A DNA stretch of 42,221 bases, from assembly GCA_045643625.1 (NCBI GenBank), contig JAZULD010000080.1, positions 1 through 42,221 of the forward strand, read 5' to 3'. Numbering within the stretch: position 1 is the stretch's first letter; every line of letters begins with the position of its first letter. This document shows positions 33,433-42,221 of the stretch, in pieces. Origin of the DNA: Acetatifactor sp. (GTDB lineage Bacteria; Bacillota; Clostridia; Lachnospirales; Lachnospiraceae). The notes beneath the pieces were generated by a model that saw nothing but the letters and a program-made list of their open reading frames with translations, made no database searches and was not told the DNA's origin. The position numbers and the translations under genes are program-made.

Positions 33433-35106
33433 TTATGCCTTGGGCAGTACAAAGGAACTCTTCAGGGATACGATACGGTTGAAGACAAGGGAGCCAGCGG
33501 TGGAATCCTTGGCATCCACGCAGAAGAAGCCCTGTCTTACAAACTGGAATCTGTCGTATGCCTTCGCATCCGCAAAAGCAGGCTCCAGATAGCACTCCTT
33601 CAGAACAGTTAAGGAGTTGGGATTCAGGTTCAGGCTGCCGTCCTCATTGTATACGCCCTTCTCCTCATCGATGATGTTCTCGTAGAGACGTACCTCTGCC
33701 TTGACAGCTTCCTTGGCTGCAACCCAGTGAATGGTACCCTTCACTTTTCGTCCGTCGGGGCTGTTGCCGCCCTTGGAAGCGGGATCGTAGGTACAGTGGA
33801 TCTCGATCACCTTGCCGGTCTCGTCCTTGACACAGCCGGTGCAGGTTACGAAATATGCGTTCATCAGACGAACCTCGTTGCCGGGGAACATTCTGAAATA
33901 CTTCTTGGGAGGCTCTTCCATGAAGTCCTCTGTCTCGATGTAGAGTTCCTTGCCGAAAGGTACCTTACGGGTGCCAAGCTCCTCGTTCTCGGGGTTGTTC
34001 ACTGCGTCCATGTACTCGATCTGATCCTCGGGATAGTTGTCGATGACAAGCTTCACGGGATCGATGACAGCCATGTAACGGGGTGCCTTGGGCTTTAAGT
34101 CCTCACGGATGCAGTACTCAAGCATAGCGTAGTCTACGGAGGACTGGCTCTTGGAGATACCGCACAGGTCTACGAAAAGCTTGATGGACTCGGGGGTAAA
34201 ACCGCGCCTTCTTAAAGCGGCGATGGATACCAGTCTGGGATCGTCCCAACCGTCCACAATGCCTTCCTCAACAAGCTTCTTGATATATCTCTTACCTGTC
34301 ACCACATTGGTCAGGTAAAGCTTAGCGAACTCGATCTGCCTGGGAGGTCTGGGATACTCAAGTTCTCTTACGACCCAGTCATACAGAGGTCTGTGGTCCT
34401 CGAACTCCAGAGTACAGATGGAGTGGGAGATACCCTCGATCGCATCCTCGATGGGATGAGCAAAATCGTACAGGGGATAGATGCACCAGGTGTCGCCGGT
34501 GTTGTGATGGGTCATGTGAGCCACACGGTAGATAACGGGATCTCTCATGTTGATGTTGGGAGATGCCATATCGATGCGTGCGCGCAGAACCTTCTCGCCG
34601 TCGGCATACTTGCCATTCTTCATCTCTTCGAAGAGAGTCAGGTTCTCCTCGATGCTTCTGGTGCTGTAGGGATCTTCCTTACCGGGCTCGGTCAGGCTTC
34701 CGCGATACTCTCTGATCTGCTCAGCGTTTAAGTCGGACACATATGCCTTGCCCTTCTTGATCAGCTTCACAGCAGCCTCGTACATATCGCCGAAGTAGTT
34801 GGAAGCGAAGAAAAGTCTGTCCTCCCAGTCGGCGCCGAGCCACTGGATATCAGCCTTGATGGATTCAACGAACTCGATCTTCTCCTTGGTGGGATTGGTG
34901 TCGTCGAAACGCATGTTGAACTTACCGTTGTACTTCTCTGCAAGGCCGTAGTTTAAGAGAATACTCTTAGCGTGGCCGATGTGCAGATAACCGTTGGGCT
35001 CCGGAGGAAAACGAGTGTGGACGGTCTCGTACACACCCTCCGCCAGATCTTTATCTATCATCTGTTCGATAAAATTTTTGGATTCGGGAATTGCTTTTTC
35101 ACTCAT
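33433..35106 (-). CDS. glnS: Glutamine--tRNA ligase
   Basis: [56 protein letters not shown]. Confidence 0.96.
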
Positions 35107-35157
35107 GGCAGTTTAAGCCTCTTTCTTTGAACTTTGTCTACAGGTGTAGCACCTTAC

Positions 35158-35187
35158 ATTGTATAACACTTTCACCCAAACTGTCAA
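35158..35187 (-). promoter_or_regulatory. Putative sigma-A promoter of glnS
   Basis: Minus strand TTGACA-N18-TACAAT. Confidence 0.6.
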
Positions 35188-35195
35188 AAAACTTT

Positions 35196-36374
35196 TTAGT
35201 GATGGAACAGTCTGATTCCGGTGAATGCCATAGCCATGCCGTACTTGTTGCAGCAGTCGATAACTGCGTCGTCTCTTACGGAACCGCCGGGCTGTGCAAT
35301 GTACTTAACACCGCTCTTGTGTGCTCTCTCAATGTTGTCGGAGAAGGGGAAGAATGCGTCGGAGCCTAAGGTCACATCCTGCATCTTATCAAGCCATGCT
35401 CTCTTCTCTTCTGCGGTGAAAACAGGGGGCTTCTCGCTGAAGGTCTTCTCCCATGCGCCGTCTGCCAGAAGGTCCATATACTCATCGCCCATGTAAACGT
35501 CGATGGCATTGTCTCTGTCAGCTCTGCCGAGACCGGGAACGAACTTTAAGTTCATTACCTGAGGGGACTGACGAAGGAACCAGTTGTCAGCCTTGCTGCC
35601 TGCAAGTCTGGTGCAGTGGATCCTGGACTGCTGACCTGCGCCGATACCGATGGCCTGGCCGTCCTTTACGTAGCATACGGAGTTACTCTGGGTGTATTTT
35701 AAGGTGATCAGAGCGATCTTGATGTCGATCAGTGCGCTCTCGGGAATCTCCTTGTTCTCGGTCACGATGTTGGACAGCAGATCTGCGTTGATGTCCAGCT
35801 CGTTTCTGCCCTGCTCGAAGGTGATGCCGTAAACCTGCTTTTTCTCAACAGCTGCGGGCACATAGTTCTCATCGATCTGAATCACATTGTAGCCGCCCTT
35901 TTTCTTCTCCTTCAGGATGGCAAGTGCCTCGGGAGTGTAGCCGGGAGCGATCACGCCGTCGGATACCTCTCTCTTGATCAGTCTTGCGGTATCCTCATCG
36001 CAGACATCGGAGAGCGCGATAAAATCGCCGAAGGAGCTCATTCTGTCAGCGCCTCTTGCTCTCGCGTATGCGCATGCAAGGGGAGAAAGATCGCCCAAGT
36101 CGTTGACCCAGTAGATCTTAGCCAGGGTCTCGGTGAGAGGAAGACCTACTGCTGCGCCTGCGGGGCTAACGTGCTTGAAGGAGGTTGCAGCGGGAAGACC
36201 GGTTGCAGCCTTTAACTCTTTTACAAGCTGCCAGCCGTTGAAGGCATCCAGGAAATTGATGTAGCCGGGTCTGCCGTTTAACACGGTAACGGGAAGGTCG
36301 CTTCCGTCCTCCATGAAGATTCTGGAAGGCTTCTGGTTGGGGTTACAGCCATATTTTAATTCGATCTCGTTCAT
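35196..36374 (-). CDS. purH: AICAR formyltransferase (stand-alone PurH transformylase domain)
   Basis: LKYGCNPNQ, GYINFLDA, SFKHVSPAG, KYTQSNSV, GAGQQSRIHCTRLAG, SDAFFPF.D, QPGGSVRD; no N-terminal IMPCH/MGS domain. Confidence 0.93.
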   Translation of the reverse strand: MNEIELKYGCNPNQKPSRIFMEDGSDLPVTVLNGRPGYINFLDAFNGWQLVKELKAATGLPAATSFKHVSPAGAAVGLPLTETLAKIYWVNDLGDLSPLACAYARARGADRMSSFGDFIALSDVCDEDTARLIKREVSDGVIAPGYTPEALAILKEKKKGGYNVIQIDENYVPAAVEKKQVYGITFEQGRNELDINADLLSNIVTENKEIPESALIDIKIALITLKYTQSNSVCYVKDGQAIGIGAGQQSRIHCTRLAGSKADNWFLRQSPQVMNLKFVPGLGRADRDNAIDVYMGDEYMDLLADGAWEKTFSEKPPVFTAEEKRAWLDKMQDVTLGSDAFFPFSDNIERAHKSGVKYIAQPGGSVRDDAVIDCCNKYGMAMAFTGIRLFHH

Positions 36375-36401
36375 GATAGAGTCCTTTCTTTTCGTCGGTG
36401 A

Positions 36402-37109
36402 TCAGTTGTTCTTGTTGATGATGTTGGTGCGCACCTCGCCGGTTGCGATGTCGATGTAGCGTACAAAGAGAGATACCTTGTTGTCCTCGTTTAAGTTCTC
36501 CCAGAGCATGTTAGTAAACTCATCCATGTCATTGCCGATCGCTACCTTCTTGGGCTCGCCATAGAAGCTGGGAAGGGGATTGCCGTCCTGCTTGTAGGTG
36601 TGGATGAAGTGGCCCTGGCCCTTGATGGGCTTGTCGTAGGTGAAGGTGTAGCGGTTGCAGCAGGAAGGATCGCCGTCGTTGCTCTTTAAGATGGAGATCG
36701 CATAATCAAACTTGCCGTCAGCCACGTTCATAAGACCGGAGATACGAGGGGTGTAGTTGGGACCGTCGGGCTCGAACTCTCTGCTTCTTAAGGACTGCTC
36801 AAAGGTAAGGCCCTCAGCAAGTCCGTCGTAGATGGTGTCGGTCTGATCGCCGTTGGTTACGATGGTCTGATTGCCAAGTACTCTTACGGGTGCGTAGATG
36901 ATCAGGCTGGGATCCTCAAGCTTGGAGGGATCGTATGCCTCGGTGCGGATGCCCTCACCCTCGGTCACGAAGACACGATTGCGGCTGTTAGAGCTTCTGC
37001 CCATGATAAAATAAGCGGTCACTGCGTACTTGCCGTCCTCGGAGAGACCGATCACGATACCTCTTCCGGGATAAGCGTTGTTCTTAAGTTCCTCATTCAG
37101 TAATAACAT
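36402..37109 (-). CDS. IMP cyclohydrolase (PurO-like, Ntn fold)
   Basis: YPGRGI, YFIMGRS.NSRNR, SLIIY, IVTNGDQTD, FEPD.PNYTPRISG; directly upstream of the AICARFT gene and under a ZTP riboswitch. Confidence 0.9.
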   Translation of the reverse strand: MLLLNEELKNNAYPGRGIVIGLSEDGKYAVTAYFIMGRSSNSRNRVFVTEGEGIRTEAYDPSKLEDPSLIIYAPVRVLGNQTIVTNGDQTDTIYDGLAEGLTFEQSLRSREFEPDGPNYTPRISGLMNVADGKFDYAISILKSNDGDPSCCNRYTFTYDKPIKGQGHFIHTYKQDGNPLPSFYGEPKKVAIGNDMDEFTNMLWENLNEDNKVSLFVRYIDIATGEVRTNIINKNN

Positions 37110-37194
37110 GTTTTTCCTCATTTCCGCACCGATCCGTAAGCCTTCCGGCCGCGGCGCCGTCGGTGCCCGCGCCTGCAATTTACCGTTGCCGTCA

Positions 37195-37246
37195 AAAAAA
37201 GCCGGCAACCTGAGCATCACAAAAAAGTGGTGCCCAGGCGGTCGGC
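37195..37246 (-). terminator. Expression-platform terminator of the ZTP riboswitch
   Basis: Minus strand GCCGACCGCCTGGGCAC...GTGATGCTCAGGTTGCCGGC followed by T6; overlaps the aptamer 3' hairpin. Confidence 0.8.
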
Positions 37247-37313
37247 TTTCATCCTATCTGCACTCCCTGTGGGTTCCCCCACCGCATTACATGCTTTCCG
37301 CCAGTTGTGCAGC
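37229..37313 (-). ncRNA. ZMP/ZTP (pfl) riboswitch
   Basis: Minus strand CAACTGGCGGAAA...GTGGG-ggaa-CCCACAGGGAG...linker...GCCGACCGCCTGGGCAC; upstream of IMPCH/AICARFT. Confidence 0.93.
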
Positions 37314-37343
37314 GTGTGTCAAAATATATTCCTACGCGTCAGA

Positions 37344-38912
<1,569 letters not shown>

Positions 38913-38925
38913 TCATGCACTTTTT

Positions 38926-39417
38926 TTAGTCCTTGAATACCTTTCGGGGTGCTGTCATCCACATTGCCTTGTACAGCTCCTCGGAGGGAGTGATGAGCAG
39001 CTTCAGATTGCCCTCGCAGTAAACTGCGTATCTGGTCTCGGGCTTGGTGCGTCCCGCGCTGAAGTTCTTCACCTTTACCTTACGATTCTTATAAGAGTCG
39101 AGCTGATGGGAATCGATGGGCGCAATGATCTCGATCTTGTCCATCTCATAGGTACCCATGGGCACGCGCTTGCTTCTTGCCATGACCTTCTCGACCTGCA
39201 GCTCCTTCTCGATAAAGAGGTACTCAAACTCCACATTGGTGAACATATTGAGCACATAGCCGCCGACGCCTGTGATGATGCCCAGCATCACGCCGATAAA
39301 GCCGGTAATGAGGGCGGACACACCGAAGATAGCGGTCAGTCCGTATAAAAAATAAACGACGATCTTAGCCGCAAGGGGCTGTTTTCTTCTCACGAGGCAC
39401 TCTACATAACCTGCCAT
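38926..39417 (-). CDS. DUF6106-like membrane protein (2 TM + soluble C-terminal domain)
   Basis: YVECLVRRK, two TM helices, VEFEY....EL.V.K.M..SKR, PRKVF C-terminus typical of this clostridial family. Confidence 0.7.
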   Translation of the reverse strand: MAGYVECLVRRKQPLAAKIVVYFLYGLTAIFGVSALITGFIGVMLGIITGVGGYVLNMFTNVEFEYLFIEKELQVEKVMARSKRVPMGTYEMDKIEIIAPIDSHQLDSYKNRKVKVKNFSAGRTKPETRYAVYCEGNLKLLITPSEELYKAMWMTAPRKVFKD

Positions 39418-39449
39418 AATGACACCGTCCTTCTTCATTCTTTTTCATA

Positions 39450-40353: not shown

Positions 40354-40372
40354 AAACCGTCAGAATAAAAAT

Positions 40373-40426
40373 AAAGCCCGAAGGGAAACGACCGAAACGG
40401 TCCGCCCCCATCGGGCTTTTCTTTTT
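40373..40426. terminator. Terminator (probably bidirectional) between convergent genes
   Basis: AAAGCCCGA.GGG...GACCGAAACGGTC...CCC.TCGGGCTTTT flanked by A- and T-rich runs. Confidence 0.8.
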
Positions 40427-40456: not shown

Positions 40457-41107
40457 TTATGCTTTGGTTGCAAACAAGACTCTGCGGAATAAGTCCGCGG
40501 TCTTCTCCTCGCCGATCGCCTTCTTGAAGACATCGGTGGAGGGACCTCCGTTCTTAAGCAGACCTTCCACATAGACGCCTGCCTTCTCGCGCTTTACTTC
40601 CGCGTCACAGGCGCCGGCATTCTCGCTGTCCTTTAAGAAGCCCGCCATGTAGCGGAGGGTCAGCTCGTCAAAGAAGGGGCTTTCCTTCTTTTTGCCCTTC
40701 TTGGCCAGACTTACGGGAAGCTTGATGGAATCGTACCAGTGACTGCCCACATTGTGCTCGGGAAGAGAGCTGCCGCCAAGCTTTGCACGCTCTGTCTCGG
40801 TCATTGCGGTGCTGCCCACAAAGGTATCGTAGATTTCAAAGATCAGGGTGTCATTGCCCATGGCAAGCACTCTGTCGTAGGACAGAAGGGGCATATCCTT
40901 CACGGTAGGGTTCACGATCAGGGTGTCCATCTTCATCAGTCCGAAGAATCCGCCCGCACGCATCACAGACACAGCTCCAAGGCCCTCAGCCTCGAAACAA
41001 CGTACAACAAACTTCATGCCGTTTGCCTTTAAATGCGCATATTCGCCGGGATCCTTCTCGGTCAGGGGATATTTTTCACCGATCTGTTTTAACAGCTTAT
41101 CGATCAT
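40457..41107 (-). CDS. Hypothetical protein with ferredoxin-dependent bilin reductase (PcyA/PebA/RCCR)-like motifs
   Basis: 216 aa; DTLIVNPTVKDMPLLSYDRV and C-terminal Y...L...GP...VF.KAIGEE.T..LF..VLF; start overlaps the upstream stop (ATGA). CDS confident, family call tentative. Confidence 0.6.
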   Translation of the reverse strand: MIDKLLKQIGEKYPLTEKDPGEYAHLKANGMKFVVRCFEAEGLGAVSVMRAGGFFGLMKMDTLIVNPTVKDMPLLSYDRVLAMGNDTLIFEIYDTFVGSTAMTETERAKLGGSSLPEHNVGSHWYDSIKLPVSLAKKGKKKESPFFDELTLRYMAGFLKDSENAGACDAEVKREKAGVYVEGLLKNGGPSTDVFKKAIGEEKTADLFRRVLFATKA

Positions 41108-41730
41108 ACCTGCGCCTCCACATTACTCTCGCGAAGGCCTGCCTTGTGCAGGATCAGTACACCTGCAAACAGGGCGCCCTGGGACACAATGTTGATGCTC
41201 TGCTCAAGCCAGTTGACCCAGGAGGCGGTGGAATCGAGACGTCCCGCATAGCCCATGCCCATGGATGCCACAAAGGCGATCACGAACAGAAGGATGGGGA
41301 ATTTCTTCTTCATGCGGCCTGCCAGAATACCGAGGCATACGCACATCATGCCAAGTCCCAGCACCATCATGACAAGGAACAGCACGGTGCCTGTAAAAAG
41401 AGGCGGTGCAACTGCCAGGAGAGCATTATCCTTCCTGCGGCATACCAGCATGAGCATGGCGATGCCTGCCATCAGGAAGCCTAAGGACTGGGTGGGCAGG
41501 AATAAGGTATTTAATGCGTGGAAATCACAGATGCCAGCAGCGTAGAGCAGCTTCCAGACTGCCTTTAATAAGCCTGCGCAGAACACGTCGATGGTGCCTG
41601 CGGCAAACAGGGCAAAACAATACTTGGTCATCTTGTGGTAGAGGTCCTTCATCATGAGAACGGTGGACACCGCGAAGAATACCACGGGGATGAAGTCTAC
41701 CAGAGCCATAATTACACTAAACTCGTACAT
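41104..41730 (-). CDS. Hypothetical polytopic membrane protein (~6-7 TM)
   Basis: GGAGGAG RBS, ATG 41730; hydrophobic helices with intramembrane polar residues (D, K..WK, Q, EQ..N..Q). Confidence 0.8.
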   Translation of the reverse strand: MYEFSVIMALVDFIPVVFFAVSTVLMMKDLYHKMTKYCFALFAAGTIDVFCAGLLKAVWKLLYAAGICDFHALNTLFLPTQSLGFLMAGIAMLMLVCRRKDNALLAVAPPLFTGTVLFLVMMVLGLGMMCVCLGILAGRMKKKFPILLFVIAFVASMGMGYAGRLDSTASWVNWLEQSINIVSQGALFAGVLILHKAGLRESNVEAQV

Positions 41731-41748: not shown

Positions 41749-42219
41749 TTACTTCTCTTTCACAAGGTGATAGAGAGGGATAAAGGGAATCAGGATGGGG
41801 GTTGTGCTCACATAGTCGCGGTACTCTTTCTTGTCGCCGTAGTTCTTGTTCTGGCGCTTCTCCAGACGCTGAGCGCCAGAGAACATGATGTACACGATGC
41901 ACACGTAGCCGAATACGGAAACGGCCCACTGCCAACCCTGCAGCACATTCAGGCCGGAGACAAAGCAGCCGGTCCAGACCAGGATCTCACCAAAGTAGTT
42001 GGGGCAGCGGCACAGCTTGAACAGGCCCTGGGTGGCGACCATGTTGGGGTTTGCCTTCTTGGCAGCGGACTTCTGCTTGTCGGCAACGGCCTCCATGGTA
42101 ACGCCGATGGCCATAATGGCAGCACCGACCCAGGTCAGCACATCGCCGCCAATGGAAGCACCGCCGTTGACCAGCCGGTACATCACGGGGGACACCTGCA
42201 TGGGGTACAGCATCGCCAT
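41749..42219 (-). CDS. DUF1295 / steroid 5-alpha-reductase-like membrane oxidoreductase, 5' end outside the window
   Basis: E.VAD.QK..AK, GLF...R.PNYFGE...W.G, LE.RQ...YG...EY..Y...TP.LIP; the frame is open to the window edge. Confidence 0.85.
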   Translation of the reverse strand: MAMLYPMQVSPVMYRLVNGGASIGGDVLTWVGAAIMAIGVTMEAVADKQKSAAKKANPNMVATQGLFKLCRCPNYFGEILVWTGCFVSGLNVLQGWQWAVSVFGYVCIVYIMFSGAQRLEKRQNKNYGDKKEYRDYVSTTPILIPFIPLYHLVKEK

Positions 42220-42221
42220 CA

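What the first reader, a model, noticed from the sequence alone, without database searches (positions are those of the whole stretch)
40457..41107. Protein with ferredoxin-dependent bilin reductase (FDBR)-like signature in a non-phototrophic anaerobe
Seen: residues 61-80 (D-TLIVNP-TVK-DMPLLSY-D-RV), followed by a beta-hairpin ending IYD, a mid-protein LP......W motif, and a C-terminus YVEGLLKNGGPSTDVFKKAIGEEKTADLFRRVLF. Known: PcyA/PebA/PebB/PebS/RCCR enzymes are of similar size and carry H/N-x4-P-x4-DLP.FG.D plus a terminal Y...Q/E.DP/ND...VL...FG.EW...Y...LF helix pair; in PcyA the catalytic His88 and Asp105 are 17 residues apart. Here D61 and D78 have that spacing, with Pro-Leu in register. 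Inference: a remote FDBR-fold radical reductase for a tetrapyrrole (bilin or chlorophyll catabolite) or other conjugated substrate, in an organism with no use for phycobilins. The distal 'DP' Asp is Gly here, so the chemistry may differ.
Basis: partly seen in the sequence, partly recalled or inferred. Interest (0 to 1): 0.8.

Follow-up and report, generated by a model that had tools for sequence, protein, structure and literature searches.

The report
Bilin-reductase relative in herbivore-gut anaerobes
A gut anaerobe carries a real but very distant relative of the enzymes that plants and cyanobacteria use to reduce bile-type pigments; it ends a conserved operon of reductase-like genes and likely acts on a pigment taken up from the gut, most likely a chlorophyll breakdown product, a step that is untested.

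Summary
The 216-aa ORF is real and has the FDBR/RCCR fold: AlphaFold pLDDT 97.8; Z 20.3 to PebA, 17.1 to RCCR, first unrelated fold 5.7. Profiles agree (hhalign 97%). D78 (PcyA Asp105 position) is conserved (122 of 132). Covariation puts D61 on the other sheet face, so T62 is the likelier His88 equivalent. The distal Asp is Gly. The family is a separate, patchy clade of gut Clostridia (7 of 400 family genomes). It usually ends a TetR–flavin reductase–atypical SDR–DUF1295–membrane operon (four core genes in 42 of 53 loci), and that core also occurs without it. No heme oxygenase was found (genome 82% complete). This genome has bilR–bilV, but only 3 of 47 operon genomes have a close bilR. Substrate and activity are untested. 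Best guess: reduction of an imported chlorophyll-derived tetrapyrrole (0.35). Rivals: non-tetrapyrrole lipid (0.25), bile pigment (0.2), non-catalytic binder (0.2). I found no paper on the clade, but could not read the Rockwell 2023 supplement. The scan noted this family before in four other genomes.

The parts
40457..41107 (-). FDBR/RCCR-fold protein, 216 aa (P0001), last gene of the operon
40874..40876 (-). Codon of D78, equivalent of PcyA Asp105; Asp in 122 of 132, Glu in 6
40922..40927 (-). Codons of D61-T62. T62 (Thr/Ser in 119 of 132) is the likelier His88-position residue; D61 is inferred to face away from the pocket
   Evidence: sequence alignments favour D61
40835..40837 (-). Codon of E91 (123 of 132), a second conserved acid on the D78 face, near the Asp of the FDBR 'D-x-x-P' strand
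40736..40738 (-). Codon of W124 (128 of 132), in the family-specific W-Y-D motif
40541..40549 (-). G187-G188-P189, in place of the K/R-D-P motif of PebA, PebB and PebS (distal Asp lost)
41104..41730 (-). Upstream multi-pass membrane protein of no known family (about 208 aa from the ATG); its stop overlaps the start of the FDBR-like gene
41749..42221 (-). 3' part of a DUF1295 (steroid 5-alpha-reductase-like) membrane protein gene, cut by the contig end
   Evidence: (PF06966 E 9.6e-26)
40370..40425 (.). GC-rich hairpins with flanking A and T runs between the converging genes; plausible two-way terminator (hairpin count not above shuffles)
   Evidence: 4 found against 2.1 +/- 1.6

Best explanation
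The gene encodes a protein predicted to have the bilin-reductase (FDBR/RCCR) fold, which ends a conserved operon of gut Clostridia and likely binds and reduces an imported tetrapyrrole, most likely a chlorophyll breakdown product from the host's forage. Shown: fold, conserved D78/E91/W124, loss of the distal Asp, operon order, patchy spread. Inferred: the pigment sits between the sheet and the C-terminal helices as in PcyA, PebB and RCCR; D78 gives the proton in a reduction; glycines at 182, 187 and 188 widen the pocket, perhaps for a bulkier or cyclic pigment; electrons come from a general ferredoxin or flavodoxin, or from reduced flavin made by the operon's flavin reductase. More speculative: the BciA-related SDR and the DUF1295 membrane reductase act on vinyl or phytol-type double bonds, and the often-linked alpha/beta hydrolase removes an ester. 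The protein is an accessory step: the four-gene core also occurs without it.
For: Fold: pLDDT 97.8; Foldseek best E 1.5e-8, TM 0.77; Z 20.3 PebA (rmsd 3.1, 210 aligned), 17.1 RCCR (3.5, 212), 14.5 CPO (3.8, 206), first unrelated 5.7. The characterised enzymes among these hits act on tetrapyrroles. Operon: 42 of 53 loci with 4 kb upstream hold all four core genes, 21 of 53 an alpha/beta hydrolase; divergent copies keep the link (L101, L103). The operon's flavin reductase ends in a PCP_red-like domain (Atlas: PF08369 in 47% of a related cluster; Z 7.2 to 2KRU, rmsd 4.0, 60 aligned). The SDR profile matches a Rhodobacter protein with BciA motifs (motifs recalled; E 7e-18, 25%); a closer Acaryochloris homologue lies just upstream of Rieske/PaO-family genes. 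21 of 80 GTDB titles name a ruminant host, one a human cohort, none a carnivore. No heme oxygenase found. No link to bilR. Pre-3 variants bind cyclic tetrapyrroles (PMC13446030). One homologue is fused to an SGNH esterase (P0486).
Against: No assay or ligand model. His88, Glu76, His74 and the distal Asp positions hold no catalytic-type residue. No small ferredoxin motif in 185 loci. The PCP_red match ties with AAA+ lid domains (Z 7-8), and Pfam does not call PF08369 on this protein. The SDR's subfamily is widespread in non-phototrophs. RCCR and the FDBRs act after oxygen-dependent ring opening (PMC10151467), which a gut anaerobe is unlikely to do. 19 of the 21 ruminant titles are hindgut, which suits bile-borne substrates as well; host counts follow catalogue make-up, and 58 titles name no host. 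This genome has bilR-bilV. 5 of 150 representatives look exported. 10 of 13 family genomes with the flavin reductase gave no match to this family.
Confidence: 0.35

Rival explanations
1. The fold has been re-used for a non-tetrapyrrole lipophilic substrate (steroid, bile-acid intermediate or plant metabolite) handled by the SDR and DUF1295 reductases.
For: DUF1295 also matches Steroid_dh, and the SDR weakly matches 3Beta_HSD and sterol-pathway models below their cut-offs. The core exists without the FDBR-like gene (L207, L209, L210, L212, L213, L218). Most FDBR catalytic positions are changed.
Against: No enzyme of this fold among the PDB hits acts on steroids. D78 is kept in the tetrapyrrole-protonating position. 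The PCP_red-like and BciA-related neighbours lean weakly to tetrapyrroles.
Confidence: 0.25
2. It reduces a bile pigment (biliverdin or a urobilinoid), and the operon may include the missing urobilinogen-to-stercobilinogen step.
For: Bilins are the usual FDBR substrates. This genome carries tandem OYE genes with the HGDR (BilR) and AHAH (BilV) motifs on C101 (motifs from PMC13252198). 19 of 21 ruminant titles are hindgut. Herbivores excrete both pigments, and the stercobilinogen enzyme is unidentified (PMC13526984).
Against: Close bilR homologues occur in 3 of 47 operon genomes and in 9 of 400 family genomes, none shared with the 7 FDBR-like or 13 flavin-reductase genomes. Short-type BilR may be missed, and the genomes are incomplete. 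BilR already reduces biliverdin. Stercobilinogen is described as the main product of carnivores and omnivores, whereas the named hosts here are ruminants.
Confidence: 0.2
3. It is a non-catalytic pigment-binding or carrier protein (or a non-redox enzyme) that holds a toxic pigment or hands it to the membrane enzymes.
For: 5 of 150 representatives and three fetched loci (L104, L105, L111) have an N-terminal signal or anchor, which would put the domain out of reach of ferredoxin. It is far less conserved (53-70%) than the flavin reductase (80-93%). FDBR-fold chains occur in chloroplast motor complexes (8xks, 8xqw). It is dispensable from the core.
Against: Two buried acids (D78, E91) are over 90% conserved across sequences down to 27% identity, which suits chemistry. 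The protein in this window has no signal segment.
Confidence: 0.2

Closest known systems
Ferredoxin-dependent bilin reductases PebA, PebB, PcyA, HY2, PebS (Pfam PF05996)
   Same: Fold over the full length (Z 16.7-20.3); D-x-P-x4-D strand with the central Asp; C-terminal helix pair ending LF; two family members exceed the Pfam cut-off.
   Different: 11-19% identity; separate branch (100/100 against 15 known FDBRs); no His88/Asn, no Glu76, distal Asp replaced by Gly; new WYD motif; no heme oxygenase found; gut anaerobe hosts; some exported forms.
Pre-PcyA FDBRs of heterotrophic bacteria (PMC10151467; PMC13446030)
   Same: Non-phototrophic hosts; Asp105 equivalent kept; Thr at the His88 position as in Pre-3, if the T62 register is right.
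   Different: Pre-PcyAs cluster with heme oxygenase and globin genes; none of these was seen in the loci examined. No pre-PcyA sequence was in my tree.
Red chlorophyll catabolite reductase (RCCR, PF06405)
   Same: Same fold (Z 17.1, rmsd 3.5, 212 aligned); chlorophyll-derived substrate as in the best hypothesis. An Atlas look-alike cluster carries PF06405 in 27% of members.
   Different: 6-10% identity; PF06405 is not among the 25 families listed for the 132 members; RCCR works after the oxygen-dependent PaO, and no PaO-like gene was seen in these operons.
Oxygen-dependent coproporphyrinogen III oxidase (HemF/CPO)
   Same: Related fold that binds a cyclic tetrapyrrole (Z 14.5 and 11.2).
   Different: More distant than the FDBRs; needs oxygen; larger.
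Gut bile-pigment reductases BilR and BilV
   Same: Anaerobic tetrapyrrole reduction in gut Clostridia; motif-bearing genes for both are in this genome.
   Different: Old Yellow Enzyme fold, on another contig, and not co-distributed with this operon.

Membership tests
FDBR/RCCR structural superfamily | alpha/beta/alpha sandwich of PcyA, PebA, PebB, RCCR over the whole chain | tested here: met
FDBR (PF05996) | Sequence homology to the Pfam model | tested here: inconclusive
   Query has no match. 53 of 132 relatives match at E<=0.5; 9 of 63 at E<=0.001, 2 over the cut-off; hhalign 97%. Homologous, but only by transitivity.
FDBR (PF05996) | Central acidic residue (PcyA Asp105) | tested here: met
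   D78: Asp 122, Glu 6 of 132
PcyA/PcyX | His88 (and Glu76 in PcyA) | tested here: not met
   T62 or D61 at the His88 position; M49 near the Glu76 position; residue roles from PMC13446030
PebA/PebB/PebS | Distal Asp of the 'DP' motif | tested here: not met
   G188 in 123 of 132
FDBR | Ferredoxin-dependent reduction of biliverdin or dihydrobiliverdin | not testable with these tools
   needs an assay; no small ferredoxin motif in 185 loci, but a 56-aa two-cluster ferredoxin lies elsewhere in the genome
Pre-PcyA | Gene cluster with heme oxygenase and globin | tested here: not met
   No PF01126 match in G000 (82% complete); recurrent neighbours are other families
Pre-PcyA or RCCR-related outgroup of Rockwell 2023 | Phylogenetic placement inside these lineages | not tested
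   no such sequences on hand; tree lacks them; supplement unreadable
RCCR (PF06405) | Sequence match to the family | tested here: inconclusive
   fold matches; not among the 25 families listed for A2
BciA 8-vinyl reductase (neighbouring SDR) | Orthology to BciA | tested here: not met
   25%, E 7e-18 to a protein with recalled BciA motifs, but E 6e-36 to an uncharacterised SDR: a related subfamily

The most novel reading that the evidence does not exclude
The operon is an anaerobic chlorophyll-processing pathway of herbivore guts. A hydrolase frees pheophorbide and phytol, the BciA-related SDR and DUF1295 reduce vinyl and phytyl double bonds, and this FDBR-fold protein with a widened pocket acts on the ring. 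That would supply enzymes on the route to phylloerythrin (the cause of secondary photosensitisation in livestock) or dihydrophytol, and the first oxygen-independent use of this fold.
Probability: 0.2. Interest if true: 0.9.

Novelty: new variant of a known kind. Interest (0 to 1): 0.6.

Why it matters
Rockwell 2023 (PMC10151467, passage) states that the known enzymes of this fold all ultimately depend on oxygen, and uses this to date the family. A large clade in gut anaerobes with no heme oxygenase found points to an oxygen-independent role. It also offers a compact operon that can be expressed and tested against two gaps: gut conversion of chlorophyll to phylloerythrin (no enzyme turned up in searches) and the unidentified stercobilinogen-forming step (PMC13526984).

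Tried and rejected
Direct Pfam, NCBIfam and PDB sequence searches of the query gave nothing significant; the histone H2B hit is chance. The Atlas label 'Viruses' rests on few records: no match in phages, plasmids or viral contigs. Joining contigs C168 and C80 was rejected: their DUF1295 pieces overlap at only 72.6% over 164 nt, so they are two copies. A D61-R79 salt bridge was not supported (Fisher p 0.2). No co-occurrence with bilR. Fusion search: 2 hits among 7986 scored candidates, both single-member clusters; P0487 looks like a frameshift read-through. The membrane protein has no usable family or PDB hit. The one RNA run laid (X19) gave only short, partly matching pieces, so expression is not shown. 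0 of 400 phylum genomes matched: not found in those searched. Paper searches found no description of this clade. No complex prediction was run.

Full report
Observation. Its start overlaps the stop of an upstream membrane-protein gene (ATGA), which follows a DUF1295 gene cut by the contig end. It has 2459 homologues among 2689 candidates in the 90% collection; a profile finds 630 representatives at E<=0.001, 183 of them at 1e-30. Three animal-gut DNA runs hold closely similar sequence over the gene; one may be the source sample. Expression was not shown. The genome is 1.96 Mb and 82% complete. That it is an anaerobe is inferred from its relatives.

Fold and family. The query matches nothing significant in Pfam, NCBIfam or PDB by sequence. 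An AlphaFold model from 132 sequences has pLDDT 97.8 and pTM 0.93. Foldseek gives 45 matches at E<=0.001; those listed are FDBRs, RCCR and two chloroplast motor chains (best gtPebB, E 1.5e-8, TM 0.77). VIA-align ranks PebA Z 20.3 (rmsd 3.1, 210 aligned), PcyA 19.6, HY2 19.5, gtPebB 19.3, RCCR 17.1, PebS 16.7 and CPO 14.5; the first unrelated fold is at 5.7. Sequence profiles agree. 53 of 132 members match PF05996 at E<=0.5; of 63 divergent proteins 9 match at E<=0.001 and 2 pass the cut-off. The family profile hits gtPebB (E 0.0019), and hhalign against 15 annotated PcyA, PebA, PebB and PebS proteins gives 97% over 199 columns. In a tree of 31 of the 132 rows plus those 15, the gut sequences lie on one side of a long branch (100/100). 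That tree has no RCCR, HY2, PcyX or pre-PcyA, so it cannot say where the clade attaches.

Active site. D78 aligns with the central Asp and is Asp in 122 and Glu in 6 of 132; E91 (123), W124 (128), G187 (128) and G188 (123) are as conserved. G188 replaces the 'DP' Asp, and G182 aligns with a Tyr of gtPebB. Ungapped alignments put D61 at the His88 position. However, the loop between the strand's Pro and the D-x-P motif is one residue shorter than in the FDBRs, the model's strands run 58-67 and 74-82, and covariation appears at i+j=138 and 140 but not 139. So M60, T62 and I64 share a face with S76, D78 and V80, and D61 points away. T62 would match the Thr that Pre-3 enzymes have there (PMC13446030, section 2.4 part 1 read). 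I had no coordinates to confirm this.

Operon. Among the best 80 of 175 GTDB relatives, 53 had 4 kb upstream. 42 of these carry, on one strand, a 308-aa flavin reductase-like gene, a 287-aa atypical SDR, DUF1295 and the membrane gene; 37 also have TetR; 9 have none of them; 21 have an alpha/beta hydrolase nearby. Corrinoid genes lie nearby in 7 of 80. Divergent copies keep the link: TetR-FDBR-like-SDR-DUF1295-membrane in L101, SDR-FDBR-like in L103. In this genome TetR, flavin reductase, SDR and a DUF1295 5' part lie on contig C168, but that DUF1295 is a different copy from the one in the window (72.6% over 164 nt). The flavin reductase is the best conserved gene (80-93%). Its model (pLDDT 67) has a split-barrel domain and a C-terminal domain like PCP_red (Z 7.2, tied with AAA+ lids; PF08369 in 47% of a related Atlas cluster). 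The SDR is related to, but not an orthologue of, a Rhodobacter protein whose BciA identity I infer from recalled motifs. Its Acaryochloris homologue precedes Rieske/PaO-family genes, which may be coincidence. The core also occurs without an adjacent FDBR-like gene in 6 of 13 regions fetched.

Distribution. The family was found in 0 of 400 phylum genomes, 3 of 24 genus genomes and 7 of 400 family genomes. The flavin reductase was found in 13 of those 400, with 3 shared (hypergeometric p 0.0009, overstated because kin are not independent). 21 of 80 GTDB titles name a ruminant host and gut segment (19 hindgut, 1 ileum, 1 omasum), one names a human cohort, and 58 name no host. There were no phage, plasmid or viral-contig matches.

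Context for the mechanism. No heme oxygenase was found in the genome, so a tetrapyrrole substrate would likely be imported. No small ferredoxin motif was found in 185 loci, but the genome has a 56-aa two-cluster ferredoxin. The genome has tandem genes with the BilR (HGDR) and BilV (AHAH) motifs (motifs from passages of PMC13252198 and 10.64898/2026.06.10.731317). Close bilR homologues are, however, in only 3 of 47 operon-bearing genomes, and in none of the FDBR-like or flavin-reductase genomes among the 400. Short-type BilR and incomplete assemblies limit this test. 5 of 150 representatives have an N-terminal signal or anchor; the window's protein does not.

Interpretation. Shown: an FDBR-fold protein with the central Asp, a remodelled pocket and a conserved but optional place in a reductase operon. 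Inferred: it binds a tetrapyrrole and, more likely than not, reduces it. I commit to a forage-derived chlorophyll product at 0.35, because the named hosts are ruminants, two neighbours have weak chlorophyll-pathway ties, a hydrolase is often linked, the bilR link fails, and the fold can take cyclic tetrapyrroles (PMC13446030, passages). Each of these is weak alone, and RCCR's natural substrate needs oxygen-dependent ring opening. The rivals are a non-tetrapyrrole lipid (0.25), a bile pigment (0.2) and a non-catalytic binder (0.2). The analogy between DUF1295 and polyprenal reductase is recalled, not tested.

Literature and novelty. PMC10151467 (passages; supplement unreadable) says all known enzymes of the fold ultimately depend on oxygen, and 'clostrid' does not occur in its main text; the supplement may still list members of this clade in the outgroup. 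PMC13526984 (passages) says the stercobilinogen step is unidentified. PMC13030745 (passages) describes phylloerythrin from digested chlorophyll and names no enzyme in those passages. PMC4836224 (passages) gave the A. marina BciA locus tag only. Eight paper searches found no account of this clade. The scan had noted the family in four other genomes; I read those notes after forming my reading. Verdict: a real, uncharacterised variant clade of the FDBR/RCCR superfamily with unknown substrate; interest 0.6.

Noticed in passing
G000:C101:4523-8473 (L232, L233): Tandem Old Yellow Enzyme genes with the BilR (HGDR, 671 aa) and BilV (AHAH, 637 aa) motifs; the organism likely reduces bilirubin to urobilinogen.
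   Followed up: partly
G000:C168:1-2822 (L087) and window 41749-42221: The two DUF1295 pieces overlap in protein position but are only 72.6% identical over 164 nt: a tandem duplicate, a second operon copy, or two strains in one bin.
   Followed up: partly
L087:1375-2301 (-): Very conserved flavin reductase-like family (at least 8000 clusters) with a PCP_red-like C-terminal domain; probably the core enzyme of the cassette and worth its own study.
   Followed up: partly
L104:7841-8638, L105:6138-7013, L111:1957-2514; P0128, P0256, P0260, P0267: Homologues with an N-terminal signal peptide or membrane anchor; those seen in loci lie outside the operon.
   Followed up: partly
L007, L010, L011, L018, L020, L021 (downstream, opposite strand): Corrinoid protein and methyltetrahydrofolate methyltransferase genes, with a RACo activator in several, flank the operon in Oscillospiraceae.
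   Followed up: no
L030:7500-10424, L039:3392-6394: An Fe-S flavoprotein of about 970 aa lies downstream of the FDBR-like gene in two Clostridia.
   Followed up: no
L089:5439-8277 (Butyrivibrio fibrisolvens D1 plasmid pNP243): TetR-SDR-DUF1295-membrane cassette without flavin reductase or FDBR-like gene, in a cultured rumen strain that could be tested.
   Followed up: partly
L090:4983-8763, L112:4983-7559 (Acaryochloris plasmids): An SDR homologue lies upstream of Rieske/PaO-family genes that are interrupted or split in these strains.
   Followed up: no
P0486: Single-member fusion of the FDBR-like domain to an SGNH/GDSL hydrolase; may be a lost stop codon.
   Followed up: no
window 33433-39438: Housekeeping block (GlnRS-, IMP cyclohydrolase-, AICAR transformylase- and IMP dehydrogenase-like by inspection; a DUF6106 protein); unrelated to the operon.
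   Followed up: no
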